The notes beneath the pieces were generated by a model. That model was not told where the DNA came from and made no database searches. It saw only the letters and a program-made list of their open reading frames with translations. 62,867 nucleotides of DNA, from contig CAZLPW010000006.1 in assembly GCA_964561495.1 (NCBI GenBank), positions 1-62,867 of the forward strand. Direction: 5' to 3'. Positions 23,814 to 54,089 of this stretch are shown in pieces; position 1 is the stretch's first letter, and each line of letters begins with the position of its first letter. Made by a program: the position numbers and the translations under genes. The stretch is from an uncultured bacterium (GTDB taxonomy: Bacteria; Fidelibacterota; Marinisomatia; Marinisomatales; UBA1611).

Positions 23814-23837
23814 GGAATTGATTTTTCATCTTTAAAA

Positions 23838-24000
23838 TAATAGTAGTTGTTTTATATATTTTATTTTATCCTGTTTAATTTTAATTATGATAACTACCAA
23901 TAATAAAAAAAATATTTAAAAATACTGGTAGTTGACTTGGTAGTTGTATATTTATATTTAAATTATATGGTTTTTTTAATAGTAGTTGTTTAGGTAGTTA
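23838..24000. promoter_or_regulatory. Array of six (T/A)GGTAGTT-type motifs (five direct, one inverted) upstream of the wbpE-like operon
   Basis: Copies at 23841-23849 (TAGTAGTTG), 23892-23899 (inverted AACTACCA), 23926-23934 and 23938-23946 (TGGTAGTTG x2, 12-bp phase), 23980-23988 (TAGTAGTTG) and 23992-24000 (AGGTAGTTA, 12-bp phase). In addition, the 15-mer TAATAGTAGTTGTTT occurs at both 23838-23852 and 23977-23991. Confidence 0.6.
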
Positions 24001-24029
24001 ATAAAGAATTTTAAAAGTTTTATGTAATT

Positions 24030-25145
24030 ATGCAGTTTATTGATCTAGGTGCTCAACAAAAAAGAATTCGCTCTAATATCCAAAAAAGGATATGCGATGT
24101 TTTGGATCATGGAAAGTATATTATGGGGCCAGAGGTTTATGAGTTAGAATCTAAATTGGCTGAATATGTTGGAAGAAAACACTGCGTTTCTTGTTCATCG
24201 GGTACTGATGCTCTTCTTATTCCATTGATGGCAAAAAATATTGGTGTTGGCGATGCTGTGATAACTACACCATTTACCTATATCGCTACCGCTGAAGTAA
24301 TTAAACTATTAGGTGCTACTCCTATTTTTGTTGATATTTATACTGATACATTCAATATTAATCCAGAAGGTATTCCTAATGCAATAAAACATGCTAAAGA
24401 ATTGGGTCTCAAAACAAAAGCCATAATTCCTGTTGATCTATTTGGCCTTCCTGCCAGATTCCGCTTAATAGAAGAGTATTCTTTGAAGTATGATCTTTTT
24501 TTAATTGAAGATGCTGCTCAGGGATTTGGTGGATCTATAAGAGGTAAAAAAGCTGGGTCTTTTGGCCATTGCTCATCCACATCTTTCTTTCCTGCTAAAC
24601 CCTTAGGCTGTTACGGGGATGGAGGGGCCATTTTTACTGATGATGATGAACTTGCAACCATAATGAGGTCAATTAGAGCCCATGGGGGAGGTGAAGATAA
24701 ATATGATAATGTTAGGCTTGGGATTAATGGGAGGCTTGATACTATACAAGCTGCCATTTTACTTGAGAAATTAACAATATTTGAAGAAGAGGTAAAACTG
24801 AGGAACCAAATAGCTTTATTTTATTTAAATAATTTAAAATCAAGTTTTAAAAATCCATTTGTACCTAACAAATATAAATCGTGTTGGGCTCAATTTTCAA
24901 TTGTTGCTAATTCTAAAGTTGAGAAAGAAGCATGTACTAATTTGTTAAATATAAATGGTATACCTACTATGAATTATTACCCAATCCCTTTGCATTTACA
25001 AAAGGTTTTTTCATACCTAGGTTATAAAAAAACTCAATTTACTATAACTGAAAAAATTTCTGATACTGTTTTTTCTATTCCTATGCATCCATATTTAAAA
25101 GAATCTGATCAAAGCATAATTGTGGATATAATAAATGAATTCTAA
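24030..25145 (+). CDS. wbpE: DegT/DnrJ/EryC1-family sugar aminotransferase (WbpE/WlbC-like UDP-2-acetamido-2-deoxy-3-oxo-glucuronate aminotransferase)
   Basis: 371 aa. The N-terminus MQFIDLGAQQKRI...HGKYIMGPEV.ELE..LAEYVG.KHCVSCSSGTDAL parallels WbpE. Operon context includes WbpB/D/A-like genes. Confidence 0.72.
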   Translation: MQFIDLGAQQKRIRSNIQKRICDVLDHGKYIMGPEVYELESKLAEYVGRKHCVSCSSGTDALLIPLMAKNIGVGDAVITTPFTYIATAEVIKLLGATPIFVDIYTDTFNINPEGIPNAIKHAKELGLKTKAIIPVDLFGLPARFRLIEEYSLKYDLFLIEDAAQGFGGSIRGKKAGSFGHCSSTSFFPAKPLGCYGDGGAIFTDDDELATIMRSIRAHGGGEDKYDNVRLGINGRLDTIQAAILLEKLTIFEEEVKLRNQIALFYLNNLKSSFKNPFVPNKYKSCWAQFSIVANSKVEKEACTNLLNINGIPTMNYYPIPLHLQKVFSYLGYKKTQFTITEKISDTVFSIPMHPYLKESDQSIIVDIINEF

Positions 25146-26094
25146 AAATATTTGTGTTGTTGGCGCGGGATATTGGGGAAAAAATCATTTACGAACTTTA
25201 AATAATTTGGGTGTGTTATCTGGCGTAGTTGAGAATAATAGTGATGTGCTAGGAGAAATACTAAATGAATATTCAAATATCAAAGGGTTTTCTTCTATTG
25301 AAGAGTCATTAATTGATGATTCTTTCGATGGGTATACTATTGCTACTCCAGCGGAAACGCATTTTGATTTAGCAAAAAAAGTTATATTGTCTAAGAAGCA
25401 TGTTTTGGTTGAAAAACCTTTAGCGCTGAATATACAAGATGTGCAACAATTAATTAGCCTTTCAGAAAAAAATTCGGTAAGGCTTATGGTTGGGCATGTA
25501 TTATTATTTCACCCAGCTATAAGGAAAATAAAAGAAATAATAAAGAGTGGAGCTATAGGAAGGCTCCAATATCTTTATAGTAATCGCTTAAATTTAGGAC
25601 AAGTAAGGACTGAGGAAAATGTGTTTTGGAGTCTTGCGCCTCATGATATTGCCATTTTTCAATATTTTACGGAAACATACCCGCTAAAGATTCAGGCTAA
25701 TGGTAGCACATTTTTGCAAAAAGGGATACCAGACTCTACTTTGACTCAGTTAGAATATAAAAAAAATATCAAAGCTCATATATTTGTAAGTTGGTTGCAT
25801 CCATTCAAAGAGCACCGCCTTGTTGTTGTTGGGTCAGATGGTATGATTTCTTTTGAAGACTCTATGGAGGGGAAACCATTGAAGCTGTATTCCAAAGGTA
25901 TTATATTCAATAATAAGATACCAGAAAAAGTAGATGGCCCTGTAGAATTAATTGATTATGAAAAAAAAATGCCTTTGACTGAAGAGCTTTCTTGTTTTAT
26001 AGAAAGTTTTGATGGAGGGAACATTTCTTCAGTTGATGGGTTTCATGCGTTAGAGGTGGTTAGGATACTAGTTGAAGCAAGTAGGCAATTATAA
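25135..26094 (+). CDS. wbpB: Gfo/Idh/MocA-family oxidoreductase (WbpB/WlbA-like)
   Basis: 319 aa. Motifs ICVVGAGYWGKNH, VLVEKPLAL. Located between the WbpE-like and WbpD-like genes. Confidence 0.68.
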   Translation: MNSKNICVVGAGYWGKNHLRTLNNLGVLSGVVENNSDVLGEILNEYSNIKGFSSIEESLIDDSFDGYTIATPAETHFDLAKKVILSKKHVLVEKPLALNIQDVQQLISLSEKNSVRLMVGHVLLFHPAIRKIKEIIKSGAIGRLQYLYSNRLNLGQVRTEENVFWSLAPHDIAIFQYFTETYPLKIQANGSTFLQKGIPDSTLTQLEYKKNIKAHIFVSWLHPFKEHRLVVVGSDGMISFEDSMEGKPLKLYSKGIIFNNKIPEKVDGPVELIDYEKKMPLTEELSCFIESFDGGNISSVDGFHALEVVRILVEASRQL

Positions 26095-26095
26095 A

Positions 26096-26599
26096 ATGAA
26101 AAGTTTAAAATATTTTGTACATGATTCTTCATTCGTTGATAAAAATGTTTCAATAGGAGAAGGAACCAAAGTCTGGCATTTCTCACACATCCAGTCTGGT
26201 TCAAGATTGGGCAAAAATTGTGTCCTTGGGCAAAATGTAAATATAGCTAACAATGTAAAAATTGGGAATTACGTGAAAATACAAAATAATGTTTCTGTTT
26301 ATGAAGGTGTTGAATTGGAAGATTATGTATTCTGTGGTCCTTCAATGGTATTTACTAATGTTAAAATCCCTAGATCGGAATTTCCTCAGCGAGGCAGTGA
26401 TTATTATAAAAAAACACTTGTAAGGAAATCGGCTAGTATTGGTGCTAATGCAACAATAATTTGTGGTGTTACAATTGGCAAATATTCTTTAATTGGATCT
26501 GGATCGGTTGTAACAAAAGATGTGCCTGACTACTCTCTTGTTTTAGGGAATCCAGCCAAAATTATTTGTGAAATCGATAAATACGGTAATCGTATTTAA
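26096..26599 (+). CDS. wbpD: Left-handed beta-helix N-acetyltransferase (WbpD/WlbB-like)
   Basis: ATG at 26096 lies just after the wbpB-like stop (26092-26094). The track's TTG at 26072 would overlap it. Hexapeptide repeats are present (IGEGTKVWHFSHI, LGQNVNIANNVKIGNYVKIQNNVSV). Confidence 0.7.
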   Translation: MKSLKYFVHDSSFVDKNVSIGEGTKVWHFSHIQSGSRLGKNCVLGQNVNIANNVKIGNYVKIQNNVSVYEGVELEDYVFCGPSMVFTNVKIPRSEFPQRGSDYYKKTLVRKSASIGANATIICGVTIGKYSLIGSGSVVTKDVPDYSLVLGNPAKIICEIDKYGNRI

Positions 26600-26616
26600 A
26601 AAATATTTTTTTAAAA

Positions 26617-27906
26617 GTGAAAAAAGATACAAAAATAGCTATAATTGGTTTGGGCTATGTAGGTTTACCATTAGCCATAGAGTTCAGTAAGTATTTTAGT
26701 GTAATCGGGTTTGATTTATCTGAAAAAAGGGTTGAAGATTTAAAAAGCGGCTTGGACATTAATAAGCAAATAAAAAAAGAAAGATTATTTCATTCACAGA
26801 ATCTTTTATTTTCTTCAAATATAAAAAGTATTTCTAAATCAAATGTATTTATTGTTACCGTCCCTACTCCTGTAGATATTCATAATATTCCAGATTTATC
26901 ACCGCTAAAATTAGCTTCAGAGATGGTTGGGGATTTTCTTAAGGAAGGTGATATGGTAATTTACGAGTCAACAGTTTATCCTGGGGCAACTGAAGAAATT
27001 TGTGTACCTATATTAGAAAAAAAATCATGTCTTAAGTATAATGCCGAATTTTTTTGTGGCTATAGCCCTGAAAGGATTAATCCAGGTGATAAAAAACACG
27101 GTATAACTAATACTATAAAAATAACTTCAGGTTCAAATTCCAGAGCTGCCAAATTTGTTGATGATCTGTATAAGAAAATTGTGAAAGTAGGTACTCATCC
27201 AGCTGGTTCAATACGTGTAGCAGAGGCCGCAAAAGTAATTGAAAATGTTCAAAGGGATGTCAATATAGCCTTAGTCAATGAATTAGCTATTATATTTAAT
27301 AAACTTGGGATTGATAGTAATGAAGTGTTTAAAGCGGCTGAAACAAAATGGAATTTCATGCCTTTTAGGCCAGGCTTAGTTGGTGGGCATTGTATTAGCG
27401 TAGATCCGTATTATCTTACCCACAAAGCCACTGAGGTCGGATATAAGCCTGATGTTATACTTGCAGGTAGAAGAATTAATGAAGGCATGGGCTCCTATAT
27501 TGCAGATGTAGCAATCTCTGAAATGACAAAACAGAGCATAAATCCAATAGATGCAAGTGTCGCGATACTTGGTATTACATTCAAAGAAAATTGTCCTGAT
27601 ATACGGAATACTAAGGTAGTTGATATATTTTATAAACTTAAAGATTTTAAATCGAAAATATTTGTAAATGATCCATGGGCAGATAAGAAAGAGGTGAAAA
27701 ATGTACTTAATATTGATTTAGTCGATTTGAAAAAAATTAATAAGGTTCATTGTCTAATTATTTGTGTAGCGCACGATGAATATAAAAAAATAGATATTGA
27801 TTCTTGGAAAGATATGGTTGTTGAGAATGGAGTAGTGATAGATGTTAAATCAATTTTTAACAAGTTATATTTTTCGAGCATTCAAATTACTCATAAGAGA
27901 ATATGA
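26617..27906 (+). CDS. wbpA: UDP-N-acetyl-hexosamine 6-dehydrogenase (WbpA/TviB/WecC family nucleotide-sugar dehydrogenase)
   Basis: 429 aa from a GTG start. Motifs IAIIGLGYVGLPLAIEF, YSPERINPGD, GGHCISVDPYYL (catalytic Cys). Confidence 0.75.
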   Translation: MKKDTKIAIIGLGYVGLPLAIEFSKYFSVIGFDLSEKRVEDLKSGLDINKQIKKERLFHSQNLLFSSNIKSISKSNVFIVTVPTPVDIHNIPDLSPLKLASEMVGDFLKEGDMVIYESTVYPGATEEICVPILEKKSCLKYNAEFFCGYSPERINPGDKKHGITNTIKITSGSNSRAAKFVDDLYKKIVKVGTHPAGSIRVAEAAKVIENVQRDVNIALVNELAIIFNKLGIDSNEVFKAAETKWNFMPFRPGLVGGHCISVDPYYLTHKATEVGYKPDVILAGRRINEGMGSYIADVAISEMTKQSINPIDASVAILGITFKENCPDIRNTKVVDIFYKLKDFKSKIFVNDPWADKKEVKNVLNIDLVDLKKINKVHCLIICVAHDEYKKIDIDSWKDMVVENGVVIDVKSIFNKLYFSSIQITHKRI

Positions 27907-27977
27907 TATATTATTGTACTATGCAAATTAATCTGTTATTTGGGTTATTTGAATTTTAAAGGGTCAGTCAGTTTTTA

Positions 27978-29657
27978 ATGAGCAAAAAATTTAAGCCTCC
28001 ATCAAATTTAACTGCAATCAAAAACGATTCTTTAAAATACCCTTCGTTGGTACTTACAGGTCGGCAAGTATGTGATTTGGAATTATTGATGAATAAAGGT
28101 TTTAGGCCTTTAAAAGGTTTCATGAATAGACAAGATTATTTTTCTGTATTAAATAACATGAGATTATCAAATGGGCTTTTATGGCCTATCCCTATTATCT
28201 TAGATGTTAATAAAAAAATTGGAGAATCATTTTGCGTTGGTGAAAAGTTGACTTTAAAAAATCAAGAAGGGTTCCCATTAGCTATTCTCAATATTAATGA
28301 TATTTGGAAACCGAACTATAATGAGGAGGCTCATTTGGTTTATGGTACAACTGATCCATCTCATCCTGGAGTATCGTATATACTTAATCGTAATGAAGTA
28401 TATTGTCTGGGTGGTGAAATTGACAATATTTCTCTCCCTTATCATTATGACTTCCAAAAAGATAGGCACACTCCAAAAGCCTTAAAAAAAATATTTAAAG
28501 ATAAAAATTGGGATGAAGTTGTTGCATTTCAAACCCGTAACCCTATGCATAAGGCACATGTAAAAATGACTCTAGAAGCGATAAGGGATTTAAAAGCTAA
28601 ATTATTAATACATCCAGTGATTGGTGAAACAAAACCTGGAGATATTGATTATTTTACTAGGGTAAGGTGTTATAAAATGATTATGGGTGAGTATCGTACC
28701 AATACCGCGATATTGAGTCTTTTACCTTTGTCAATGCGAATGGCAGGCCCAAGAGAGGCAATTTGGCATGCTCTAATTAGAAAAAACTATGGTTGTACTC
28801 ATTTGATAGTAGGTAGAGATCATGCTGGGCCAGGTGTTGATTCTAGGGGATCGTCCTTTTATGGACCATATGATGCGCAAAATCTACTAGAGAAATATCA
28901 AAACGAAATTGGTATTAATATAGTTCAATTTAAGACAATGGTCTATGTTCCTAGCTTAAATAAGCACATGAAATTGGAAAAAATTAATAAAAAAGAAGAA
29001 TATAAAAACCTTTCTGGAACAGAGATGCGTAAACTACTTGATAAAGGATTAAAAATACCCAATTGGTTTACATTTGAAAATGTTGCAGAAGAGCTAAGAA
29101 AGAGCACTCCTCCAATACACAAAAGAGGATTTACTGTTTTTTTTACTGGGCTATCTGGTTCTGGAAAGTCAACTCTTGCAAATGGTTTAATGATAAAACT
29201 GCTTGAGGAGGGGAGTAGATCTGTTTCTTTATTGGATGGAGATATTATCAGAACAAATTTATCAAGTGAGTTAGGTTTTTCTAAAAATCATCGTTCTATT
29301 AATGTTAGACGTATTGGATTTGTAGCAAGTGAAATAACAAAAAATGGTGGAGTTGCCATATGTGCTCCTATAGCACCCTATGAGGCTGATAGGCTTGCCA
29401 ATAGACAAATAATCTCAAAGTATGGTATATTTATTGAGGTTTATGTAAGTACTCCTTTGGAAATATGCGAGGAGCGTGATTCTAAGGGATTATATGAATT
29501 AGCTAGGAAAGGTGAATTGAAAGAATTTACAGGTATTTCAGATCCATATGAAAAACCAAATAATCCTGATATATCCATTAATTCAAGTGGTCTTTCTCCT
29601 GATAAGCTAGTTGAAAAAATCTATAGGAGTATCAAAAACCTTGGGTTAGTAAAATAG
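27978..29657 (+). CDS. sat-cysC: Bifunctional sulfate adenylyltransferase / adenylylsulfate kinase (PAPS synthesis)
   Basis: 559 aa. ATP-sulfurylase motifs FQTRNPMHKAH and VGRDHAGPG. The C-terminal APS kinase is intact: FFTGLSGSGKSTLA, LLDGDIIR, NVRRIGFVA, EVYVSTPLEICEERDSKGLY. Confidence 0.9.
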   Translation: MSKKFKPPSNLTAIKNDSLKYPSLVLTGRQVCDLELLMNKGFRPLKGFMNRQDYFSVLNNMRLSNGLLWPIPIILDVNKKIGESFCVGEKLTLKNQEGFPLAILNINDIWKPNYNEEAHLVYGTTDPSHPGVSYILNRNEVYCLGGEIDNISLPYHYDFQKDRHTPKALKKIFKDKNWDEVVAFQTRNPMHKAHVKMTLEAIRDLKAKLLIHPVIGETKPGDIDYFTRVRCYKMIMGEYRTNTAILSLLPLSMRMAGPREAIWHALIRKNYGCTHLIVGRDHAGPGVDSRGSSFYGPYDAQNLLEKYQNEIGINIVQFKTMVYVPSLNKHMKLEKINKKEEYKNLSGTEMRKLLDKGLKIPNWFTFENVAEELRKSTPPIHKRGFTVFFTGLSGSGKSTLANGLMIKLLEEGSRSVSLLDGDIIRTNLSSELGFSKNHRSINVRRIGFVASEITKNGGVAICAPIAPYEADRLANRQIISKYGIFIEVYVSTPLEICEERDSKGLYELARKGELKEFTGISDPYEKPNNPDISINSSGLSPDKLVEKIYRSIKNLGLVK

Positions 29658-29705
29658 CTTTGCTATGTGTTTTAATTATTAAACTGTATATAATGGTAAG
29701 TTTTT

Positions 29706-30251
29706 ATGTTTGTAGAACAATCTATCTTAAAAGAAGTTAAAATAATAAAGCCTCAGATTCACACTGATGAAAGGGGTAGTTTTTTGGAGCTATTTAAATC
29801 ATCAAATTTTAAGAAATTTGGGTTGCCTCATAAATTTGTTCAAGAAAACCAAGTCTTTTCTAAGAAGGGGGTTTTAAGAGGCCTGCATTACCAATTGAAT
29901 TATCCGCAGGGTAAACTAGTCAGATGTATAACAGGCGCTATTCTTGATGTTGTTGTTGATATTAGAAAAGGATCGCCTAATTTTGCTAAATTTACTATTA
30001 TTGAAATATCAGCTGAAAACCAGATTTCTGTTTATGTCCCTGAGGGTTTTGCCCATGGTTATATAGTTAAATCTAACGAATCTGTAGTCTTGTACAATTG
30101 CACCAGTGAGTATAATCCCGAAGATGAATATGGAATTATTTGGAATGACTCAAGAATAAATATTAATTGGGGTAATCAAAGTCCAGTTGTATCAAAAAAA
30201 GACTCGTGTTTGCCCTCTCTTTCCAATCAAAATTTTTTACCAGTATATTAA
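29706..30251 (+). CDS. rfbC: dTDP-4-dehydrorhamnose 3,5-epimerase
   Basis: 181 aa. Motifs DERGSFLE, RGLHYQ, PEGFAHGY. Confidence 0.9.
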   Translation: MFVEQSILKEVKIIKPQIHTDERGSFLELFKSSNFKKFGLPHKFVQENQVFSKKGVLRGLHYQLNYPQGKLVRCITGAILDVVVDIRKGSPNFAKFTIIEISAENQISVYVPEGFAHGYIVKSNESVVLYNCTSEYNPEDEYGIIWNDSRININWGNQSPVVSKKDSCLPSLSNQNFLPVY

Positions 30252-30252
30252 A

Positions 30253-31305
30253 ATGGATAGTATATTGGTAACTGGTGGTTGTGGTTTTATAGGTTCAAAC
30301 TTTATTAAATATTATTTAGATAATTATCATAATATAAGTTTAGTCAATCTTGATAAACTGACATACGCTGGAAACTCTAGTAACCTTAAGGGAATCAAGG
30401 ATTTAAACTATACTTTTGTTAATGGAGATATCTGTGATTCTGACCTTGTTAAATCTTTATTTAAAAAATATAATTTCTCAACATTAGTCAATTTTGCTGC
30501 TGAAAGCCATGTAGATAGATCTATAGATGGCCCAGCTGATTTTATAAACACAAATGTTATTGGAACATTAAATTTACTAGAGCAAGCTAGGCATTTTTTC
30601 GATTCAAAAAAAAATCCTAAGAAATTTAAATTTATTCATATATCTACTGATGAGGTATATGGTTCTTTGGGTGAAAAAGGCAGCTTTTCAGAGGAGAGTC
30701 CTTTTCAGCCTAATTCGCCTTATTCTGCGTCGAAGGCTAGTTCTGATCATTTGGTGAAGTCATGGTATAAAACATTTGGGTTGCCTACTTTAATTACAAA
30801 TTGTTCTAATAATTATGGACCATACCAATTTCCTGAAAAACTAATTCCTCTTACGATTATTAATTGTATTGAGGACAATCCCTTGCCTGTATATGGTGAC
30901 GGAAGAAATATACGAGATTGGTTATATGTAGATGATCATTGTAAAGCAATTGATTTGATATCGAAAAATGGAGTTGTAGGTGAGACTTACAATATTGGTG
31001 GTTTGAGTGAGTTAACTAATATTGATGTTGTAAAAAAAATTTGTAGCATGTTAGATATTATATCTCCAAAGAAAGATGGAACTAGTTATTCAAAATTAAT
31101 AACTTTTGTACAAGATAGGCCTGGTCATGACAGGAGATATTCGGTCAATATAGATAAGATTCAAAAAAAAATGAGTTGGACTCCAGAAGAATCATTTGAT
31201 AGCGGAATAGAAAAGACAATTAAATGGTATTTAAATAATAAAAGTTGGTGGAAAAGTCTCAAGGGGAAATATAATCAACAAAGACTTGGGGTTATAAAAA
31301 AATGA
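30253..31305 (+). CDS. rfbB: dTDP-glucose 4,6-dehydratase
   Basis: Start at ATG 30253 ([17 protein letters not shown]). The track's 30187 start overlaps rfbC and adds a non-homologous leader. Motifs [25 protein letters not shown]. Confidence 0.92.
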
Positions 31306-32171
31306 AAGCAATAATTCTTGCAGGCGGTAGTGGAACTCGATTGTATCCAACTACCATCGTTGTTTCTAAGCAACTTATGCCGATATTTGATAAACCAATG
31401 ATTTATTATCCTTTATCTACTATTATGCTATCTGGGATAAGGGAAATTTTGATTATTTCATCGCCCTTTGATTTGCCGTTATATGAAAAATTATTAGGAT
31501 CGGGTGATGAATTGGGGCTAAGGATATCATACGCAATTCAGCCTAGTCCAGATGGATTGGCACAAGCTTTTTTAATCGGGGAAAGTTTTATCGGAAAAGA
31601 TAATGTCGCTCTTATTCTTGGGGATAATATTTTTTATGGTCATGGCATGGCTAAAACTCTCCAGTCTTGTGTTAATAAAGTTCAGTCTAAAAATACTGCT
31701 ACAGTTTTTGGGTATAATGTGAAAAATCCAGAAGATTATGGTGTTGTGACATTTGATGAAAAAAACAAGGTAACTGATATTGTTGAAAAGCCAGATCATC
31801 CAAAATCTAACTATGCAGTTACAGGGCTTTATTATTACCCAAATGATGTAGTGGAAATAGCAAAAAAAGTTAAACCTTCGAATCGAGGAGAGCTAGAAAT
31901 CACTTCGGTAAACAAAAGATTTTTAGATCAAGGTAGGCTAAATGTTGAAATTATGGGCCGTGGTTACGCTTGGTTAGATACTGGAACAATTGAGTCGATG
32001 TATGCTGCGTCAAGTTTTATACAAGCAATAGAGGGGAGGCAGGGTCTGAAGGTTGCATGCATTGAAGAAATTGCATTTAAAATGGGATATATTAACCGAT
32101 CAATGTTGAAAAAAAGTGCCTCAAAATATAATAATCAATATGGGCGCTATTTAAAGTCTTTGTTGGTATAA
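31302..32171 (+). CDS. rfbA: Glucose-1-phosphate thymidylyltransferase
   Basis: 289 aa. Motifs [54 protein letters not shown]. Confidence 0.93.
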
Positions 32172-32243
32172 TAACAGCAAGAGTTTGCTAATTAATCATA
32201 ATTTATTTATTGGATAAAAATCTGATTATAGTGTTTTAATTGA

Positions 32244-32346
32244 TGGTAGCTATATGGTAGTTTAGAAAAAACATATAAATTCATTGATTTCAACTTAAAT
32301 TTCATTAGGATAATAATGGCGCAAATGGTAGTTTTAATGGTAGTTG
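32244..32346. promoter_or_regulatory. Second array of four TGGTAG(T/C)T motifs as two phased pairs, upstream of ORF 32374
   Basis: Copies at 32244 (TGGTAGCT) and 32255 (TGGTAGTTT), 11 bp apart. Further copies at 32326 (TGGTAGTTT) and 32338 (TGGTAGTTG), 12 bp apart. The last copy ends 28 nt before ATG 32374, against 30 nt in the first array. Confidence 0.55.
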
Positions 32347-32373
32347 CCCTAGATGGAAAGGAAATTTTAAAAC

Positions 32374-33171
32374 ATGAGCAGTATATATAGAAAAAATAGA
32401 GATGGCTATTTTTATTATCAGACTTATGTATATAATCCTAAGTCAAAAAAGAAAGATAAGAGAATTTTTCATGCTTTGGCGACTAAAAGTGAATCTGAGG
32501 CAAAAATAAAACAGGCCAATTACGATAGAAAATACAAAAGAGCCACCAACAATAAACAGTCTAGCTTTTTTAAGGCTTGGCTTCAAGCAAATAAAAAAAC
32601 CATTCTAACAGTAGCTTTTTCTTCTATATGTACTTTTTTAATTACCCAGAATTTTCAAAAAACACAAGAAAGTTTTCCAAATGCTAAAACCAATTATCAA
32701 TTAGAATCTGTAATAATTGATAAAATTGACGAGGACTACTCTCAAGTAAAAAAAGAAGAACTTCAAAATAAAAAAATACAAATAATTGATAAAAATAAAA
32801 TAGGGGAACAAAAAGAACGAAAACAAAAAATAGTTAAAAATTTGACTATTCCCCAATATAAGATTATGCGAAAAGAACAGCTTTCGGAAGCCTTTGACCA
32901 ATGGAAAATTTTTGTTGTCGTTGAAACTATTCTTGATTCTAAAAGTTTAAGAAACATTTGTAATATGATTTCAAAAGATTATTCTAATTATCAAAACCTA
33001 GTGATTTGTATTTATCTTAACAATGATGTAGGTATGAAAATTGCATTAGGAAGGAAAAATAATTTCAGTCTTGAACAAGAAAAAGATTCATGGTTGGCTA
33101 TGTATACCTATAACTCTGTAGAAGGTGCCTTTTTTGATGATAATCCTGGCCAATATATATGGACCAATTAA
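32374..33171 (+). CDS. Hypothetical single-pass membrane protein with N-terminal integrase-arm/AP2-like putative DNA-binding domain
   Basis: 265 aa. N-terminus IYRKNRDGYFYYQTYVYNPKSKKKDKRIFHALATKSESEAKIKQANYD resembles the lambda Int arm-binding fold (LYIRNNGYYCYRDP...AITEAIQANIE). One TM helix (ILTVAFSSICTFLITQNF), then about 170 aa of unknown domain. No recombinase catalytic domain. Confidence 0.4.
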   Translation: MSSIYRKNRDGYFYYQTYVYNPKSKKKDKRIFHALATKSESEAKIKQANYDRKYKRATNNKQSSFFKAWLQANKKTILTVAFSSICTFLITQNFQKTQESFPNAKTNYQLESVIIDKIDEDYSQVKKEELQNKKIQIIDKNKIGEQKERKQKIVKNLTIPQYKIMRKEQLSEAFDQWKIFVVVETILDSKSLRNICNMISKDYSNYQNLVICIYLNNDVGMKIALGRKNNFSLEQEKDSWLAMYTYNSVEGAFFDDNPGQYIWTN

Positions 33172-33197
33172 TAAATAATTCTTTGAGCGAGGTATAA

Positions 33198-35882
33198 ATG
33201 TTAAAAAAAATAATTTTGGCAAAATTTTTTATAATTTGTCTAATTAAATCACAAAGCCCTGAACAAATCAAGGCAATAGAAAAAGTTGTCAAAAATAAAG
33301 GAATGTCAAAACAGCAGGTTATAAATGCAGCTAAAACTCAGGGTTATACTGAGGACCAAATTAAAGCTATTGAAACAAAATATAATTCTAGAGATAAATC
33401 TGATAATAATGATGCAATGAAAAATAGTTTTGATGATGATTTAGAAGTTGTGGAATTAGAAGACCCAAATTCCCCTCAAGAAAAAGAAGGAAATTTAGAT
33501 GAAGAAGAAAAATTGGAAATTGAAACTAAAATACAAGAAGCCAGAGAAGCCCCTAGTTACTTTGGTTATGATATTTTCCAACGAGATCCTTCTGCATTTC
33601 AATCTTCATCTGTTGGTGCCGTTGAACCTGATTATCTAATCGGACCAGGTGATGAAATAATTGTAATGCTTTGGGGTGAAACTCAGTTCAGGCAAGTTCT
33701 TACAGTAAATCGAGAAGGTTTTATTTTTATTCCTGAAGTTGGTCAGGTTTTTGTTAATGGACTAAACTTGAATCTACTTGAATCCAAATTATTTCGTGTT
33801 ATGTCTCAGTCTTATGCGAGTTTAAACCCACGCGGTGGAAAATCATCTACATTTCTTGATGTTAGTCTTGGAAACTTAAGACCCCTTCGTATTCAAGTTT
33901 TAGGTGAGGTGGCTCAGCCAGGAGCATATACTGTAAATCCTTCTGCAACTCTTTTTTCTGCTTTGTATTATTTTAATGGTCCTACTACGTTAGGTTCACT
34001 TAGAGATATAAGGCTTATCCGTGGAGGGAAAGAAATTAGCCGAATAGATTTTTATGATTATTTATTTACGGGGAAAAAACCTAAAGATCAAAAATTACAG
34101 CTTGATGATGTTATTTTTATACCAAAAAGAATGAAAACGGTCACGATTCAAGGTGAAATAAATAGGCCAGGAATATATGAGCTGAAGCCCGATGAAACAT
34201 TAAATGATATAATTAAAATGGCTGGAGATTTAAAAATTACGGCTTATATGAATAGAATTCAGATTGATCGTATTGTACCTTTTGATAAGCGAGAAGAGTT
34301 GGGCTTAGAGAGGGTACTTTCAGATATCAATTTAGGAAGTGTAATTAAAAACAATAAAAAATATTATTTGCAAGATGCAGATCACATCCAGATTTTTTCA
34401 ATTTTAGATTCTAGGTTAAATACTGTGCAAATTTCTGGTGCGGTTACAAGGCCAGGTAGCTACGAATTAAAAGATTCATTATCTTTAAATCAATTAATCG
34501 AAAAAGCAGATGGCTTGCTAGGTGATGCTTATTTAAAGCGTGTTGATATTATACGAATCATGCCAGATCTTAAAGAACAATTAATCAAATTAAATCTTGA
34601 AAAAGTAATTTTAGATGATCAAGAGCATAATATTCAATTACAAAATTTAGATAGAGTAAGAATTTTCAGTTTAACAGAGATGGTGTCTCGGAACTCTGTT
34701 GAGATCAGAGGTCATGTTAAAAATCCTGGCAGATATCCTTTGCAAGGCGGAATGCGCATAAGAGATATTATATTTAAATCTGGAGGTTTTGTTGATGGAG
34801 AGTTTTTAAAGAGAACCTATTTAGGTAGAGCAGATTTGATCCGATATGATGAAAATAATATAACTCAAAATATCACCTCTTTTAATTTGGGAGATTTGAT
34901 AAATAATAATAATTATGATTCAAATGTTCTGCTTCTTCCAGGCGATATAGTTAGGATATATCCAAAAACATTATTTAAATCAGCATATGAGGCTACTATT
35001 TTAGGATCAATAAAAGAACCAGGCAGTTTCACTGTGAAGAATAAAATGACTCTTAGAGATTTGATTTTGGAAGCTGGTGGTTTTGACAAGGATGTTTATA
35101 GGTATAGAATTGAAATTTCTAGGATTGATCCAAAAAATAAATCTATTGATGTCTATTCAACCCTTTCTGAAATATTTATTGATAAAGATTTTTTTGAATC
35201 ATTTGCAAGTAGCGAGGATCATGACAATATATCCAAACTTAATCCAATAATAATGCCATATGATATAGTTTTTGTAAGACCAGATCCTAATTTTTCGATG
35301 CAAAGAACTATTTCAATTGAAGGAATGGTAATGTATCCTGGAGTTTATCCACTGCTTAGTCCAAATGAAACAATAAGGGACGTAGTTATAAGGGCAGGGG
35401 GCCCCAATAGTAACGCATACCTTCCCGCATCAAAATTTATAAGAAGTGGTATTGAAGTAAAATTATCTTTAGAAAATATTTATAATGGTAAAGACGATTT
35501 AAATTCAAATTTTAAGGTTGCAAATGGAGATCGGATTATAATTGCAGGTCGCACCAAAATCTTTTCTATCTTTGGAGAAGTCAATAGTCCAGGCCGATAC
35601 CCGCATAATAGAAATAAAAGAGTCAATGACGCTATCAGATTATCTGGAGGATTTACTCCAAATGCAGACAAAAAAAATATTTTTATTACTTTTCCTAATG
35701 GAGATTCTAAAAAATATAACAGATTCTTAAATAATCCTAGGCTAATGGATAGTTCTACTATAACCGTTGGAAGAAAGCCTGATGAAGAGCCTTTTGATCG
35801 TACGGAATATGCCAAAGAACTAACTGCAATTGTTGCTAATATAGCACAAGCAATTTCATTGGTGATTCTTGCAAAAAACTAA
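33198..35882 (+). CDS. wza: Polysaccharide export protein (Wza-like Poly_export domain plus multiple SLBB repeats)
   Basis: 894 aa with a signal peptide. Motif YLIGPGDEIIVMLWGE, and repeated V.I.G.V..PG.Y.L soluble-ligand-binding beta-grasp units throughout. Confidence 0.8.
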   Translation: MLKKIILAKFFIICLIKSQSPEQIKAIEKVVKNKGMSKQQVINAAKTQGYTEDQIKAIETKYNSRDKSDNNDAMKNSFDDDLEVVELEDPNSPQEKEGNLDEEEKLEIETKIQEAREAPSYFGYDIFQRDPSAFQSSSVGAVEPDYLIGPGDEIIVMLWGETQFRQVLTVNREGFIFIPEVGQVFVNGLNLNLLESKLFRVMSQSYASLNPRGGKSSTFLDVSLGNLRPLRIQVLGEVAQPGAYTVNPSATLFSALYYFNGPTTLGSLRDIRLIRGGKEISRIDFYDYLFTGKKPKDQKLQLDDVIFIPKRMKTVTIQGEINRPGIYELKPDETLNDIIKMAGDLKITAYMNRIQIDRIVPFDKREELGLERVLSDINLGSVIKNNKKYYLQDADHIQIFSILDSRLNTVQISGAVTRPGSYELKDSLSLNQLIEKADGLLGDAYLKRVDIIRIMPDLKEQLIKLNLEKVILDDQEHNIQLQNLDRVRIFSLTEMVSRNSVEIRGHVKNPGRYPLQGGMRIRDIIFKSGGFVDGEFLKRTYLGRADLIRYDENNITQNITSFNLGDLINNNNYDSNVLLLPGDIVRIYPKTLFKSAYEATILGSIKEPGSFTVKNKMTLRDLILEAGGFDKDVYRYRIEISRIDPKNKSIDVYSTLSEIFIDKDFFESFASSEDHDNISKLNPIIMPYDIVFVRPDPNFSMQRTISIEGMVMYPGVYPLLSPNETIRDVVIRAGGPNSNAYLPASKFIRSGIEVKLSLENIYNGKDDLNSNFKVANGDRIIIAGRTKIFSIFGEVNSPGRYPHNRNKRVNDAIRLSGGFTPNADKKNIFITFPNGDSKKYNRFLNNPRLMDSSTITVGRKPDEEPFDRTEYAKELTAIVANIAQAISLVILAKN

Positions 35883-35902: not shown

Positions 35903-36973
35903 ATGTCTAAAATAAAAGAAAAAATAGAACCTCTTAGCGAAAAACCATCCAAAGGAGATATCCTTTCTTTTTCAGAGATTATACTTACACTAGCAAAAAA
36001 TTTCAAAATAATTATTTTTCTACCTTCTGTTTTATGTGTTCTGCAAATTATATACGTTCAGTTTTTAGCTGCCCCAGTTTTTATTTCCCAAGCAAAAATA
36101 TTATCTTCCTCTAATAGTGGTGTTTCTCAGGCCGCTGGTATTGCTGCTCAATTTGGAATTTCAATACCGCAAATATCAGATGAACAGGAGTGGGTTTATC
36201 CAGAAATAGTGAAAAGCAGAAAAATTTCTAAACTAATGTTAAAAAGGAGGTTTGATACGAATGAATTTGGTTCTCAAAAATTATTACTACAAATTTTGAC
36301 ATACGGAAATAGGCAGCCTGAATTTGGTATCGATACTTTGATCAAGTTTGGTGTGGGAAAGATGCAATCGATGATTGAGATTAAAAAAAATGGAAATTTT
36401 TACGATCTATCTATAAAAGCCAAAGAACCAATTTTTGCGCGAGACTTAGCAACTGCGTTAATTGAAGAACTTGATGCTCATCAAAAAAAGTATAATAAAT
36501 CTAAAACCAGTGAGGCTAGATTATTTATTGAAGAAAGGATTGATGAAACTCGTAAAGAACTAGAATCAGCAGAAGAAAAGTTGAAAAACTTCAGAGATAG
36601 GAATAGGAGAATTGAAAATTCCCCATCATTGCAATTAGAGGAAACTCGCTTGGTTAGAGAGGCCTCTGTTTTAACTGGAGTATACACTACTCTCAAGCAA
36701 CAGTTAGAAACCACAAAAATAGAGGAGGTGAAAGAATCTAATTATGTTATTGTCCTAGACCCACCAGAAGCTCCATTAGATAGAGCTTATCCTAGAAAAA
36801 AAATGATGGTAATTTTTACAGGTATAATTGGTCTATTTCTGGGTGTTGCTTTTGCTTTAATTAGGGGTTATTTAGAGGATAGTAGTTTGCATGATAAAAA
36901 TATTGTCAGAAAAGCAAAAAAAATACTTTTTAATAATATTTTTGATCTTACACCAAATTTTTTGAAAAGATAG
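35903..36973 (+). CDS. wzz: Polysaccharide chain-length determinant (Wzz/PCP family, no kinase domain)
   Basis: 356 aa. TM helices near both termini (IIIFLPSVLCVLQIIYV; MMVIFTGIIGLFLGVAFALI) flank a coiled-coil periplasmic region. It follows wza. Confidence 0.72.
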   Translation: MSKIKEKIEPLSEKPSKGDILSFSEIILTLAKNFKIIIFLPSVLCVLQIIYVQFLAAPVFISQAKILSSSNSGVSQAAGIAAQFGISIPQISDEQEWVYPEIVKSRKISKLMLKRRFDTNEFGSQKLLLQILTYGNRQPEFGIDTLIKFGVGKMQSMIEIKKNGNFYDLSIKAKEPIFARDLATALIEELDAHQKKYNKSKTSEARLFIEERIDETRKELESAEEKLKNFRDRNRRIENSPSLQLEETRLVREASVLTGVYTTLKQQLETTKIEEVKESNYVIVLDPPEAPLDRAYPRKKMMVIFTGIIGLFLGVAFALIRGYLEDSSLHDKNIVRKAKKILFNNIFDLTPNFLKR

Positions 36974-38104: not shown

Positions 38105-38292
38105 AACCTAGAAAATTTTTAGAGAATATGCTTTAAAGTGAATCTAAAAATAATTAATATCAAGTAAGTTTCTTGTTCAATTAAATCATCTTTATTTTGG
38201 CGTAAATAAAATTGTAATTTCGGGCTAAATAACCTTTTCAAATACCTATATAGTTCTATATTCAAAAAAATAATTTTCAAGGATTGAAAAAT

Positions 38293-38481
38293 ATGATAAG
38301 ATTAATATTTTTTTTATTTATATTGGTTCCATCAAGCAGTTTATTTGCTTATTTAGACCCAGGCTCATTTAGTTATTTTTTACAAATTATAGTGATGGTT
38401 TTTGTAGGTGGTATTGTAGCAGTAAAAAATTTTTGGCATAATATAACAAGTTTCTTTAAAAGTATATTTAAAAAAAAATAA
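38293..38481 (+). CDS. Small hydrophobic protein (62 aa) at head of phosphonate operon
   Basis: MIRLIFFLFILVPSSSLFAYLDPGSFSYFLQIIVMVFVGGIVAV...: two hydrophobic segments around a YLDPGS motif. ATG 38293 is preferred over the track's TTG 38284. Confidence 0.4.
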   Translation: MIRLIFFLFILVPSSSLFAYLDPGSFSYFLQIIVMVFVGGIVAVKNFWHNITSFFKSIFKKK

Positions 38482-47609: not shown

Positions 47610-47912
47610 ATGAAAGAAAAAATATTAGACATTATATATGAAACTTTAGATGAAATAAATGAAGTTTTAGGGGAAAGACAAAAAATTGAAAAAACAAAAG
47701 GAGCAAAATTATATGGCAAAAATGGACCACTTGATTCATTGGGGTTAGTTAATTTAATGGCTAGTCTTGAACAAAATTTTGAAGATTATTTTGATGTTAG
47801 TATAATTATTGCAAGCGAAAAAGCAATGTCTCAAAAAAATAGTCCATTTAGAACCATTGATTCACTCTCTAATTATATAAAAGAGCTAATTGAGGAAGAA
47901 TTAAATGAATGA
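47610..47912 (+). CDS. Acyl carrier protein
   Basis: 100 aa, acidic. The phosphopantetheine attachment motif LDSLGLVNLM sits at the expected helix-2 position. Confidence 0.75.
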   Translation: MKEKILDIIYETLDEINEVLGERQKIEKTKGAKLYGKNGPLDSLGLVNLMASLEQNFEDYFDVSIIIASEKAMSQKNSPFRTIDSLSNYIKELIEEELNE

Positions 47913-50959: not shown

Positions 50960-51020
50960 TGGATAAATCATAATAAATTGGTTTAATATGCTAATTAATA
51001 ATTTTAATGAATAATTATTA

Positions 51021-51722: not shown

Positions 51723-51761
51723 CAGCGCTCATAAAACTGGACGACTTTTTTTTATTGTTCT

Positions 51762-52832: not shown

Positions 52833-52834
52833 AT

Positions 52835-54049: not shown

Positions 54050-54089
54050 TAATGATAAGAGTATTTTAGATAATGATTAAAAAAAAACA

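What the first reader, a model, noticed from the sequence alone, without database searches (positions are those of the whole stretch)
32374..33171. Membrane-anchored protein with an integrase arm-type (AP2-like) N-terminal domain: candidate cognate binder of the TGGTAGTT repeats
Seen: residues 4-52 (IYRKNRDGYFYYQTYVYNPKSKKKDKRIFHALATKSESEAKIKQANYDRKY) have the pattern of three beta-strands plus a helix. They also share several identities with the lambda Int arm-binding domain (LYIRNNGYYCYRDPRTGKEF...AITEAIQANIE). A Lys-rich linker follows, then one TM helix (residues about 76-93) and about 170 aa of C-terminal domain with no motif I recognise. There is no tyrosine-recombinase catalytic domain.

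Established: arm-type domains bind short, directly repeated sites.

Inference: this may be a ToxR/CadC-style one-component membrane regulator. It would use an arm-type DNA-binding domain to read the repeated motif upstream of itself and of the 24030 operon, coupling an envelope signal to capsule and glycan expression. It occupies the position held by UpxY/UpxZ-type regulators in Bacteroides loci but is unrelated to them.
Basis: inference. Interest (0 to 1): 0.7.

Follow-up and report, generated by a model that had tools for sequence, protein, structure and literature searches.

The report
Membrane-tethered integrase-arm-like glycan-locus regulator candidate
A small membrane protein heading the polysaccharide-export operon of marine Marinimicrobia has a cytoplasmic domain remotely related to the N-terminal domain of some integrases, and always sits behind paired GGTAGTT repeats, so it is a plausible but untested new kind of membrane-anchored gene regulator.

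Summary
The 265-aa ORF at 32374-33171 is real and built as described: a conserved, basic beta-beta-beta-alpha N-domain (1-60), one hydrophobic helix (about 74-94), a variable linker and a conserved C-domain (159-265).

It belongs to an unnamed family confined to Candidatus Marinimicrobia. In 16 of 16 loci with downstream sequence it directly precedes wza and, where sequence continues, usually wzz.

The N-domain gives no significant hit to lambda Int, P4-type arm domains or any solved structure. It is a remote homologue (hhalign 90%, Pfam below threshold) of DUF6538. I show DUF6538 to be the N-terminal domain of some tyrosine recombinases.

Sense-strand pairs of GGTAGTT, 11-12 bp apart, lie within 200 nt upstream of the gene in 20 of 20 loci. 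Chance is about 0.0006 per locus. They also precede other sugar operons.

The most likely reading is a ToxR-like transmembrane regulator with an exapted integrase N-domain. DNA binding, topology and the link between protein and repeats are all inferred. The main rival is an export-machinery accessory protein with the repeats read by another factor.

The parts
32374..33171 (+). Gene X: 265-aa single-pass membrane protein, family confined to Candidatus Marinimicrobia
   Evidence: ORF and translation. There are 392 homologues of about 250-278 aa, and the only names any source gives are 'hypothetical protein'.
32374..32553 (+). N-domain (residues 1-60): three strands plus a helix, 16 K+R against 5 D+E, the most conserved part of the protein; remote homologue of DUF6538
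   Evidence: AF2 pLDDT about 90. Mean column identity 72%. DUF6538 sub-threshold hits in register in 51 of 63 members. hhalign 89.9%.
32593..32655 (+). Predicted transmembrane helix (residues about 74-94)
   Evidence: AF2 helix 74-94. It is the only hydrophobic segment in all 63 members.
32656..32847 (+). Variable, low-complexity linker (residues about 95-158), presumably periplasmic
   Evidence: pLDDT below 50 for 96-119 and 125-157. No consensus in the alignment.
32848..33168 (+). Conserved C-domain (residues 159-265), alpha/beta, two invariant cysteines (C196, C212), no known family or fold match
   Evidence: pLDDT above 90. Invariant columns. Best Foldseek PDB match has E 0.064. It also occurs alone behind a signal anchor in L002 4462-5100.
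32245..32262 (+). Distal repeat pair GGTAGCTATATGGTAGTT (11-bp period), ending 111 nt before the ATG
   Evidence: Same position in L140 and L141.
32327..32345 (+). Proximal repeat pair GGTAGTTTTAATGGTAGTT (12-bp period) followed by G, ending 28 nt before the ATG
23927..23945 (+). Repeat pair GGTAGTTGACTTGGTAGTT upstream of the 24030 operon
23981..23999 (+). Repeat pair AGTAGTTGTTTAGGTAGTT, ending 30 nt before the ATG at 24030
23892..23899 (-). Single inverted unit (TGGTAGTT on the minus strand) in the same intergenic region
33198..35882 (+). wza-like outer-membrane polysaccharide export protein (Poly_export plus seven SLBB stretches), 26 nt after gene X
   Evidence: It follows X in 16 of 16 loci.
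35903..36973 (+). wzz-like chain-length determinant (Wzz plus GNVR)
   Evidence: synteny.
24030..32171 (+). Nucleotide-sugar and PAPS operon behind the second repeat array: DegT aminotransferase, GFO oxidoreductase, hexapeptide acyltransferase, UDP-sugar dehydrogenase, ATP sulfurylase/APS kinase, rmlC/B/A-like genes

Best explanation
Gene X most likely encodes a transmembrane one-component transcription regulator of the glycan export and biosynthesis locus.

**What the sequence and models show.**
- The protein has a small basic beta-beta-beta-alpha N-domain, one membrane helix, a variable linker and a conserved C-domain with two invariant cysteines.
- The N-domain is a remote homologue of DUF6538, the N-terminal domain of a group of tyrosine recombinases. 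That is the position where integrases carry their arm-site-binding domain.
- The gene always heads a wza (and usually wzz) operon.
- Sense-strand pairs of the 7-mer GGTAGTT, 11-12 bp apart, always lie just upstream of it and also precede other sugar operons in the same genomes.

**What is inferred.**
- The N-domain is cytoplasmic and the C-domain periplasmic.
- Two N-domains bind side by side to a GGTAGTT pair, as integrase arm domains bind paired arm-type sites.
- The periplasmic domain senses an envelope or export signal, perhaps through Wza or Wzz or through its cysteine pair, and changes oligomerisation or DNA occupancy.
- Occupancy activates transcription where the second unit overlaps a -35-like TTGnnn, about 17 nt before a TAnAtT element. 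It may repress or autoregulate where the pair sits 4-30 nt from the start codon.
For: **Fold and homology.**
- The N-domain fold is predicted with confidence.
- The DUF6538 match is in register in 51 of 63 members. The family consensus reaches E 1.2e-4 and 22 bits.
- hhalign of the N-domain alignment against real DUF6538 sequences gives 89.9% (E 1.7e-6) over 47 columns. Two other comparisons score far lower: 1.1% against the P4-type alignment and 19% against lambda Int.
- DUF6538 proteins on plasmids have a DUF6538 plus Phage_int_SAM architecture, with a Phage_integrase match in two of the three examined.
- Six phage integrases are among the top 50 BFVD structural neighbours, including rank 1 (Mx8 Int, probability 0.99). 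Their rmsd is 1.5-2.7 A over 45-56 columns.

**Conservation.**
- The N-domain is the most conserved part of the protein, with 72% column identity.
- The repeat core is conserved across loci whose proteins are only 34-41% identical to the window's.

**Repeats.**
- 20 of 20 loci have a sense-strand pair within 200 nt upstream. Chance is 0.0006 per locus.
- Pairs also precede other sugar operons: window 23927 and 23981, L003 1660, L007 821, L012 3333, L015 3455.
- In most of the -100-class loci, a TGTAnATT-like element follows at a fixed 18-20 nt.

**Context.**
- X is followed by wza in 16 of 16 loci.
- No other regulator or NusG paralogue is encoded in the 62.9-kb window.
- A paralogue with a signal anchor plus the C-domain only places that domain outside the cytoplasm.

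**Established knowledge.** Lambda, Tn916 and L5 integrase N-domains bind short, directly repeated arm-type sites about one helical turn apart. ToxR, CadC and PhoB-type activators read direct repeats that overlap or replace the -35.
Against: - No DNA-binding evidence exists for this family or for DUF6538.
- All Pfam scores are below the DUF6538 gathering threshold. The window protein scores only 10.6 bits.
- Foldseek against the PDB finds no arm-type or AP2 domain, and nothing with E <= 0.001. The BFVD integrase hits have E 0.16-2.2.
- There is no profile link to PF13356.
- The N-domain is only about 14 residues from the membrane helix. This is a much shorter tether than I recall for ToxR or CadC.
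- K+R counts flanking the helix do not decide the topology: the median is 3 on each side.
- The distance from pair to start codon ranges from 4 to 139 nt. No single promoter geometry fits.
- The same motif serves all loci, and one MAG has two X paralogues (L011 and L012). The system therefore offers no obvious locus specificity.
- C-domain-only paralogues show that the C-domain works without the N-domain.
- Co-occurrence of gene and motif is also expected if both are simply fixed parts of the locus.
Confidence: 0.45

Rival explanations
1. X is an accessory or assembly component of the Wza/Wzz export machinery, for example an inner-membrane anchor or periplasmic adaptor. Its basic N-domain contacts proteins, lipids or nucleic acid non-specifically. 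The GGTAGTT pairs are read by a different, unlinked factor such as a transcription factor or alternative sigma factor.
For: - X lies 20-170 nt upstream of wza in every locus and looks co-transcribed with it.
- The C-domain exists on its own behind a signal anchor next to the same loci.
- The tether between the N-domain and the membrane is very short.
- One motif serves several operons and several X paralogues, as expected for a general factor.
- There is no significant match to any characterised DNA-binding domain.
Against: - The N-domain is more conserved than the C-domain.
- It is homologous to an integrase N-terminal domain family.
- No other candidate reader of the motif is encoded in 62.9 kb of glycan genes.
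Confidence: 0.3
2. The repeat pairs act within the transcribed leader as an ops/JUMPStart-like signal, or as an RNA element containing UAG. This signal would recruit an antitermination factor, or the pairs would themselves be an unusual promoter. X need not touch them.
For: - The GGTAG core resembles the E. coli ops element GGCGGTAG (my knowledge).
- All gene-proximal pairs are on the sense strand.
- Some pairs end only 4-30 nt before start codons: L015 3455, L143, window 23981 and 32327. That is too close for a promoter to lie downstream of them.
- There is no plus-strand terminator-like site between rmlA and X.
Against: - No NusG, RfaH or UpxY-like gene is in the window.
- ops is a single element, not a tandem pair.
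- Inverted pairs occur in the same intergenic regions with no minus-strand gene to serve: L001 5226, L002 5785, L004 5779, L005 5786, L006 5780. This fits a DNA-binding protein better than a strand-specific signal.
- The first G of a unit can be A, unlike the near-invariant GG of sigma-54 -24 boxes.
- Rfam finds nothing.
Confidence: 0.15
3. X is an arm-site-binding accessory of a recombination system. It would bind the direct and inverted GGTAGTT pairs that flank a segment of about 140 bp upstream of the gene in some loci, and help a recombinase encoded elsewhere invert that segment, giving phase variation of the glycan locus.
For: - In L001, L002, L004, L005 and L006 a direct pair and an inverted pair bracket a conserved segment of about 140 bp upstream of the proximal pair.
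- The N-domain is of integrase origin.
- Bacteroides capsule loci are phase-varied by promoter inversion (my knowledge).
Against: - The window clade and most loci have only direct pairs.
- Arm-type sites are not crossover sites.
- No recombinase is nearby.
- No evidence of both orientations was available.
Confidence: 0.05
4. X is a decayed remnant of an integrase gene, or the ORF is spurious.
For: None beyond the integrase-like N-domain.
Against: - The 120 listed homologues cover 98-100% of the query at 36-84% identity.
- 265 clusters at 50% identity score E <= 1e-10.
- The C-domain fold is predicted with confidence.
- Synteny is fixed.
Confidence: 0.01

Closest known systems
ToxR / CadC / TcpP-type transmembrane transcription regulators (also ChiS and TfoS of Vibrio)
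   Same: The predicted layout matches: an N-terminal DNA-binding domain, a single membrane helix and a periplasmic sensor domain, all in one protein. The periplasmic domain has conserved cysteines, as in CadC (paper titles and abstracts). The candidate target is a set of direct repeats near or overlapping the -35.
   Different: The DNA-binding domain is not an OmpR-type winged helix, and no Trans_reg_C hit is found. The tether to the membrane is only about 14 residues. The sensor domain is unrelated. No function has been tested.
DUF6538 (PF20172) N-terminal domain of tyrosine recombinases
   Same: It is the best and only consistent sequence relative. The G-x-Y-Y...K-x-x-x-x-SLGTKD-x-x-EA pattern is shared. 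hhalign gives 89.9% over the whole domain.
   Different: Scores are below the Pfam threshold. In X the domain is followed by a membrane helix and a periplasmic domain instead of the SAM-like and catalytic domains. DUF6538 itself is uncharacterised.
Arm-type DNA-binding domains of lambda Int, Tn916 Int and P4-type integrases, and the AP2/ERF domain
   Same: The order of secondary structure is the same: three strands, then a helix. The size is about 55 aa and the strands are rich in basic and aromatic residues. The candidate sites are short direct repeats one helical turn apart, like paired arm-type sites (my knowledge). Phage integrases appear among the BFVD neighbours.
   Different: There is no significant sequence or structural match to lambda Int, PF13356 or PDB entries.
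UpxY / UpxZ (Bacteroides) and RfaH/ops control of polysaccharide operons
   Same: The regulator candidate is the first gene of the glycan operon. A conserved cis element with a GGTAG core lies in front of polysaccharide genes.
   Different: X has no NGN or KOW domain. It is membrane-anchored. The cis element is a tandem pair and also occurs inverted.
PhoB pho box
   Same: Both use 7-bp direct repeats with an A/T-rich spacer (11-12 bp period). In the loci where the pair lies about 100 nt upstream, the second unit overlaps the -35 position.
   Different: The protein family is different. The pair positions vary between loci.

Membership tests
Integrase arm-type / AP2-like DNA-binding domains | Three-stranded antiparallel sheet followed by one helix, in about 50-60 residues | tested here: met
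   AF2 gives strands 3-6, 13-21 and 26-34 and a helix at 40-61, with pLDDT 90.3. This shows the order of secondary structure only.
Integrase arm-type / AP2-like DNA-binding domains | Significant structural match to a solved arm-type or AP2 domain | tested here: not met
Integrase arm-type / AP2-like DNA-binding domains | Structural similarity to integrase N-termini in predicted structures | tested here: inconclusive
   BFVD rank 1 is the Mx8 integrase (E 0.16, probability 0.99). Five more integrases are in the top 50, with TMq 0.40-0.62. No hit reaches E <= 0.001, and the aligned region of the targets is not reported.
Integrase arm-type / AP2-like DNA-binding domains | Profile homology to a curated arm-type family | tested here: not met
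   No Arm-DNA-bind or AP2 Pfam hit even at E <= 10. hhalign gives 1.1% against a PF13356 alignment and 19% against lambda Int 1-70.
Integrase arm-type / AP2-like DNA-binding domains | Binds short, directly repeated DNA sites | not testable with these tools
   Only cis evidence exists: conserved GGTAGTT pairs upstream of the gene in 20 of 20 loci.
DUF6538 (PF20172) | Score at or above the Pfam gathering threshold (27 bits) | tested here: not met
   The best score is 22.1 bits for the family consensus. Natural members score 12-21 bits and the window protein 10.6 bits.
DUF6538 (PF20172) | Profile-profile homology across the domain | tested here: met
   hhalign gives 89.9% (E 1.7e-6) over 47 columns, residues 3-49. 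The comparison with the P4-type alignment A5 gives 1.1%.
DUF6538 (PF20172) | Followed by the SAM-like core-binding and catalytic domains of a tyrosine recombinase | tested here: not met
   Reference proteins: L017 and L019 have the SAM-like domain and a Phage_integrase match (the L019 match is just below the Pfam threshold); L018 shows only a weak SAM-like match. X has a membrane helix and an unrelated C-domain.
ToxR/CadC-like transmembrane regulators | Cytoplasmic N-terminal DNA-binding domain, single membrane helix, periplasmic C-domain | tested here: inconclusive
   There is one hydrophobic segment. The N region is strongly basic, with a median net charge of +7. A C-domain-only paralogue behind a signal anchor supports C-out. 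Flanking charges are equal, and no dedicated topology predictor was available.
ToxR/CadC-like transmembrane regulators | OmpR-type winged-helix DNA-binding domain | tested here: not met
   No Trans_reg_C or other HTH hit in 63 members.
NusG-like antiterminators (UpxY, RfaH) | NGN and KOW domains | tested here: not met
   No such Pfam or NCBIfam hit for X or for any ORF of 120 aa or more in the window.
Tyrosine recombinases | Catalytic Phage_integrase domain | tested here: not met
   Absent. The protein is only 265 aa.

The most novel reading that the evidence does not exclude
An integrase N-terminal, arm-site-type domain has been exapted in Marinimicrobia into the DNA-reading head of a new class of transmembrane one-component regulator. 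Bound to paired GGTAGTT sites, it would hold the promoters of glycan export and nucleotide-sugar operons at the inner membrane. It would also couple their transcription to a periplasmic signal sensed by a previously undescribed cysteine-containing domain. This would be a bacterial parallel to the recruitment of AP2-type domains as transcription factors in plants and apicomplexans.
Probability: 0.4. Interest if true: 0.75.

Novelty: new variant of a known kind. Interest (0 to 1): 0.6.

Why it matters
Marinimicrobia (SAR406) are abundant and uncultured ocean bacteria. Nothing is known about how they control their very large surface-glycan loci.

If the model holds, it adds a new DNA-binding domain type to the small set of membrane-tethered transcription factors. 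It also gives a clear case of an integrase DNA-targeting domain reused for gene regulation.

It would supply a defined protein-site pair: a domain of about 60 aa and a 19-bp site. That pair can be tested in vitro without culturing the organism.

The conserved repeat pair is useful regardless of what reads it. It marks the heads of glycan operons in this phylum.

Tried and rejected
**Direct family and structure searches.**
- Pfam and NCBIfam on the window protein gave nothing meaningful.
- Profile searches of PDB sequences with the full-length and N-domain alignments gave nothing.
- Foldseek of the full model against the PDB gave no significant match. The best was a T6SS immunity protein, E 0.064, so the C-domain fold stays unassigned.
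- Foldseek of the N-domain against the PDB gave no integrase or AP2 hit.

**Wider searches.**
- An exhaustive HMMER search of 1.84 billion representatives with the N-domain profile gave 307 hits. The 150 listed are all full-length family members or short products with the same N-terminus. The 42 weaker hits, which might include integrases, are not listed.
Of 80 loci, 78 are unrelated, and most of those checked (GC <= 0.37) lie inside ORFs. Only L044 and L095 are next to an X homologue. The scan therefore says nothing about whether the motif occurs without the protein.

**RNA and promoter scans.**
- Rfam on the window and on the L001 leader gave nothing.
- The sigma-70 consensus scan of 32100-33300 found no plus-strand promoter in the intergenic region and was not above the shuffled background.

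**Ideas considered and set aside.**
- A sigma-54-type reading of the pair (a 12-bp spacing like the -24/-12 boxes) was rejected. Both units share the whole 7-mer, the first G can be A, and the -12 C is absent.
- The HU-HIG hit of the C-domain paralogue (E 0.006, 17 bits against a threshold of 26.2) was treated as spurious.
- hhalign against P4-type arm domains and lambda Int was not significant.
- A search for papers mentioning DUF6538 found none.
- A search on Marinimicrobia polysaccharide and capsule genes listed no Marinimicrobia paper among its ten results.
Full report
**1. The observation**

AlphaFold2 with a 63-sequence alignment (A1) gives these elements:
- strands at 2-6, 13-21 and 26-34 and a helix at 40-59, with pLDDT about 90;
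- a long helix at 74-94;
- a disordered stretch at 96-157;
- a confident alpha/beta domain at 160-265.

The N-domain modelled alone gives pLDDT 90.3 and pTM 0.72. A single hydrophobic segment at about 76-94 is present in all 63 aligned members. The median Kyte-Doolittle mean is 2.15, and the window's own segment is weaker at 1.4. Pfam and NCBIfam give nothing for the window protein, and there is no recombinase catalytic domain.

**2. The family**

There are 392 homologues with E <= 0.01. The 120 listed are 248-278 aa. The only names any source gives are 'hypothetical protein', and the only organism named is Candidatus Marinimicrobia.

A scan of one genome per GTDB species found 15 loci. All are in Marinimicrobia/Neomarinimicrobiota or unclassified 'uncultured bacterium' MAGs, except one contig binned as an archaeon. 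An exhaustive HMMER search of 1.84 billion representative proteins with the N-domain profile found 307 proteins. The 150 listed all match through their first 50-61 residues and are either about 240-278 aa or shorter, probably truncated, products. The N-domain is therefore essentially confined to this architecture.

Conservation is bipartite. Residues 1-55 have 72% mean column identity. Residues 160-265 are also conserved and include two invariant cysteines, C196 and C212. The linker between them varies.

**3. Is the N-domain integrase-like?**

Direct tests against characterised arm-type domains did not reach significance:
- The PDB sequence profile search gave no hit.
- Foldseek against the PDB gave 57 matches, all with E >= 3.1, and no integrase or AP2 entry among the 50 listed.
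- hhalign against an alignment of P4-type arm domains (PF13356, built from E. coli IntA relatives) gave 1.1%.
- hhalign against lambda Int 1-70 gave 19% over 19 columns.
- BLASTP against lambda Int gave E 0.097 for the single comparison.

One Pfam family does recur. PF20172 (DUF6538) matches 51 of 63 members, always in register: residues about 24-57 against profile positions 23-54 of 60. The scores are 12-22 bits against a threshold of 27, and the family consensus reaches E 1.2e-4.

I fetched 27 real DUF6538 sequences (alignment A3). hhalign of the N-domain alignment against them gives probability 89.9% (E 1.7e-6) over 47 columns, residues 3-49. Both families share the pattern G-x-Y-Y...K-x-x-x-x-S-L-G-T-K-D-x-x-E-A.

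Three full-length 'DUF6538 domain-containing proteins' on alphaproteobacterial plasmids are 418-511 aa. All three carry DUF6538 at residues about 10-67 and a SAM-like core-binding match. Two of them also match the Phage_integrase catalytic domain: one at 30.2 bits, above the 27.1-bit threshold, and one at 25.7 bits, just below it. DUF6538 therefore sits where tyrosine recombinases carry their arm-binding domain.

In the library of predicted viral structures, the top neighbour of the N-domain model is the Mx8 integrase (E 0.16, probability 0.99). Five more phage integrases are in the top 50, with rmsd 1.5-2.7 A over 45-56 columns. None reaches E <= 0.001.

My reading is that the N-domain is a remote relative of an integrase N-terminal domain family. 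Membership of the characterised arm-type/AP2 group is plausible but not shown.

**4. Topology**

No dedicated predictor was available. K+R counts in the 15 residues on each side of the helix are equal, with a median of 3 on each side. Three things favour N-in and C-out:
- A folded N-terminal domain of 60-75 residues and strong positive charge (median net charge +7), with no signal peptide, is unlikely to be translocated.
- In L002 (4462-5100), and from the tblastn match at L001 3970-4530 probably there too, a paralogue consists of a short signal anchor (MKKVLFLLLAVVLFYGLFKF) followed by the same C-domain without the N-domain.
- The C-domain has two invariant cysteines.

The tether between the N-domain and the membrane helix is only about 14 residues. 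That is a point against a DNA-binding role.

**5. Genomic context**

The whole window is one plus-strand array of glycan genes. They include:
- glycosyltransferases, nucleotide-sugar enzymes and a PAPS-synthesis gene;
- a phosphonate cluster and a nonulosonic-acid cluster;
- wza and wzz.

I found no transcription factor, sigma factor or NusG paralogue among the 53 ORFs of 120 aa or more.

Gene X is followed 26 nt later by a wza-like gene of 894 aa, and then by a wzz-like gene. A wza-like gene directly follows X in 12 of 12 GTDB loci that extend downstream and in 4 of 4 further metagenomic loci. A wzz-like gene follows where sequence continues, except in L145, where a dTDP-sugar isomerase gene follows wza. 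One MAG (SP3097) carries two such loci, L011 and L012.

**6. The repeats**

TGGTAGTT occurs 9 times in the window against 1.66 expected. Six of the nine sense-strand GGTAGTT copies lie in the two intergenic regions 23813-24030 and 32171-32374. Only 4.7% of the window is intergenic.

The units come in tandem pairs with an 11- or 12-bp period:
- 32245-32262 and 32327-32345, upstream of X;
- 23927-23945 and 23981-23999, upstream of the 24030 operon, together with one inverted unit at 23892.

Across relatives, every one of 20 loci has a sense-strand pair within 200 nt upstream of the X start codon. The chance of that in shuffled sequence is about 0.0006 per locus. The repeat cores are among the few conserved islands in otherwise divergent upstream regions.

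Pairs also precede other sugar operons in the same contigs: L003 1660, L007 821, L012 3333 and L015 3455. Outside the regex-fixed positions, the base after the second unit is G in 19 of 22 pairs. The base after the first unit is A in 18 of 22.

There are two arrangements:
- In most GTDB loci one pair starts 83-108 nt before the ATG. Its terminal TT plus the following G starts a -35-like TTGnnn, and in most of these loci a TGTAnATT-like element follows 18-20 nt later. This geometry resembles a class-II activator site or a pho box.
- In the window's own clade there are two pairs. In the window, L140 and L141 they lie 82-83 nt apart and end 111-112 and 28 nt before the ATG. In L143 the spacing is 72 nt and in L145 it is 99 nt. 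The proximal pair is too close to the start codon to lie upstream of a promoter. In L015 a pair ends 4 nt before the start of a UDP-sugar dehydrogenase gene.

No single promoter model fits every case. Five loci also have an inverted pair about 215-222 nt upstream and a further direct pair about 370 nt upstream, which together bracket a conserved segment of about 140 bp.

**7. Most likely mechanism and its rivals**

The best-supported reading (confidence about 0.45) is a transmembrane one-component regulator. The cytoplasmic N-domain would bind GGTAGTT pairs at the heads of the export and nucleotide-sugar operons. The periplasmic C-domain would supply the signal. Section 8 separates what is shown from what is inferred.

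The main rival (about 0.3) is that X is an accessory protein of the Wza/Wzz machinery and another factor reads the repeats. Supporting this are the tight linkage to wza, the C-domain-only paralogues, the short tether and the lack of locus specificity.

A second rival (about 0.15) is an ops-like or leader element, or an unusual promoter, that acts independently of X. The start-codon-proximal pairs and the strict sense orientation fit this. The inverted pairs and the absence of a NusG paralogue do not.

A role as a recombination accessory in phase variation (about 0.05) is suggested only by the bracketed segment in five loci. An integrase remnant or spurious ORF is excluded by the conservation.

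**8. Comparison with known systems and novelty**

In its predicted working, the protein is closest to ToxR, CadC and TcpP. It fails their defining winged-helix domain, so it may work like them but is not a member. It is not a NusG-type regulator and not a recombinase. Its only sequence relative is an uncharacterised integrase N-terminal domain family.

I rate it a new variant of a known kind, conditional on function, with interest 0.6.
- **Computed here:** the architecture, the family's restriction to Marinimicrobia, the synteny, the repeat conservation and the DUF6538 relationship.
- **Inferred:** DNA binding, the protein-repeat link, topology and signal sensing.

Noticed in passing
L002 4462-5100 (212 aa); tblastn match at L001 3970-4530: In L002, a paralogue made of a signal anchor plus the same conserved C-domain, without the integrase-like N-domain, lies about 900 nt upstream of the full-length gene. 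L001 has a matching stretch that was not checked for an ORF. The match is 30-33% identical to the window protein over the C-domain.
   Followed up: partly
L001 5071-5245; same region in L002, L004, L005, L006 (alignment A4): A conserved segment of about 140 bp is bracketed by a direct GGTAGTT pair and an inverted pair. It starts with GCCCTAnATATCGTCG, and the window's proximal pair is followed by the same GCCCTAGAT. It could be an invertible or divergently read regulatory element or a small RNA. Rfam finds nothing.
   Followed up: partly
L011 and L012 (both from MAG SP3097): One genome carries two complete X-wza-wzz loci. Both have the same repeat motif, so the motif cannot give locus specificity.
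   Followed up: no
L015 (PAOZ01000046.1): A contig with a typical Marinimicrobia X-wza-wzz locus is filed under a 'Methanobacteriota archaeon' MAG. This is probably a binning error.
   Followed up: no
window 38486-42035: A phosphonate cluster: a PEP mutase fused to a cytidylyltransferase-like domain, a TPP-dependent decarboxylase-like enzyme and an Fe-alcohol dehydrogenase. It suggests a phosphonate-decorated glycan. A homologous cluster lies next to the X locus in L014.
   Followed up: partly
window 27978-29657: A bifunctional ATP sulfurylase/APS kinase lies inside the repeat-headed sugar operon, and is adjacent to X loci in L001, L002, L005 and L010. It suggests a sulfated polysaccharide.
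   Followed up: no
window 49952-56536: A nonulosonic-acid-type cluster: NeuB, WbqC, a DegT aminotransferase, a UDP-GlcNAc 2-epimerase, PIG-L, a CBS-nucleotidyltransferase and a CMP-sugar cytidylyltransferase.
   Followed up: no
window 20514-23813: A 1099-aa gingipain-like C25 peptidase with propeptide, Ig-like and C-terminal dockerin domains lies immediately upstream of the first repeat array.
   Followed up: no
window 17285-17303 (minus strand): A GGTAGTT pair lies on the minus strand inside the ornithine cyclodeaminase-like ORF 16704-17633. It may be chance or an internal antisense site.
   Followed up: no
window 47610-47912 and 38284-38481: Two small unannotated ORFs fill apparent gaps. One is a 100-aa acidic protein with a DSLG motif reminiscent of carrier proteins. 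The other is a 65-aa hydrophobic protein. Neither has a Pfam hit.
   Followed up: partly
window 43167-44744: A 525-aa ORF within the glycan cluster has no credible Pfam family. It was not examined further.
   Followed up: no
L038 5407-5510 (metagenome contig Ga0163153_10000781): An unrelated contig (GC 0.46) carries a run of at least six overlapping 12-bp-period GGTAGTT units. It looks like a tandem repeat with nothing to do with the Marinimicrobia loci.
   Followed up: no
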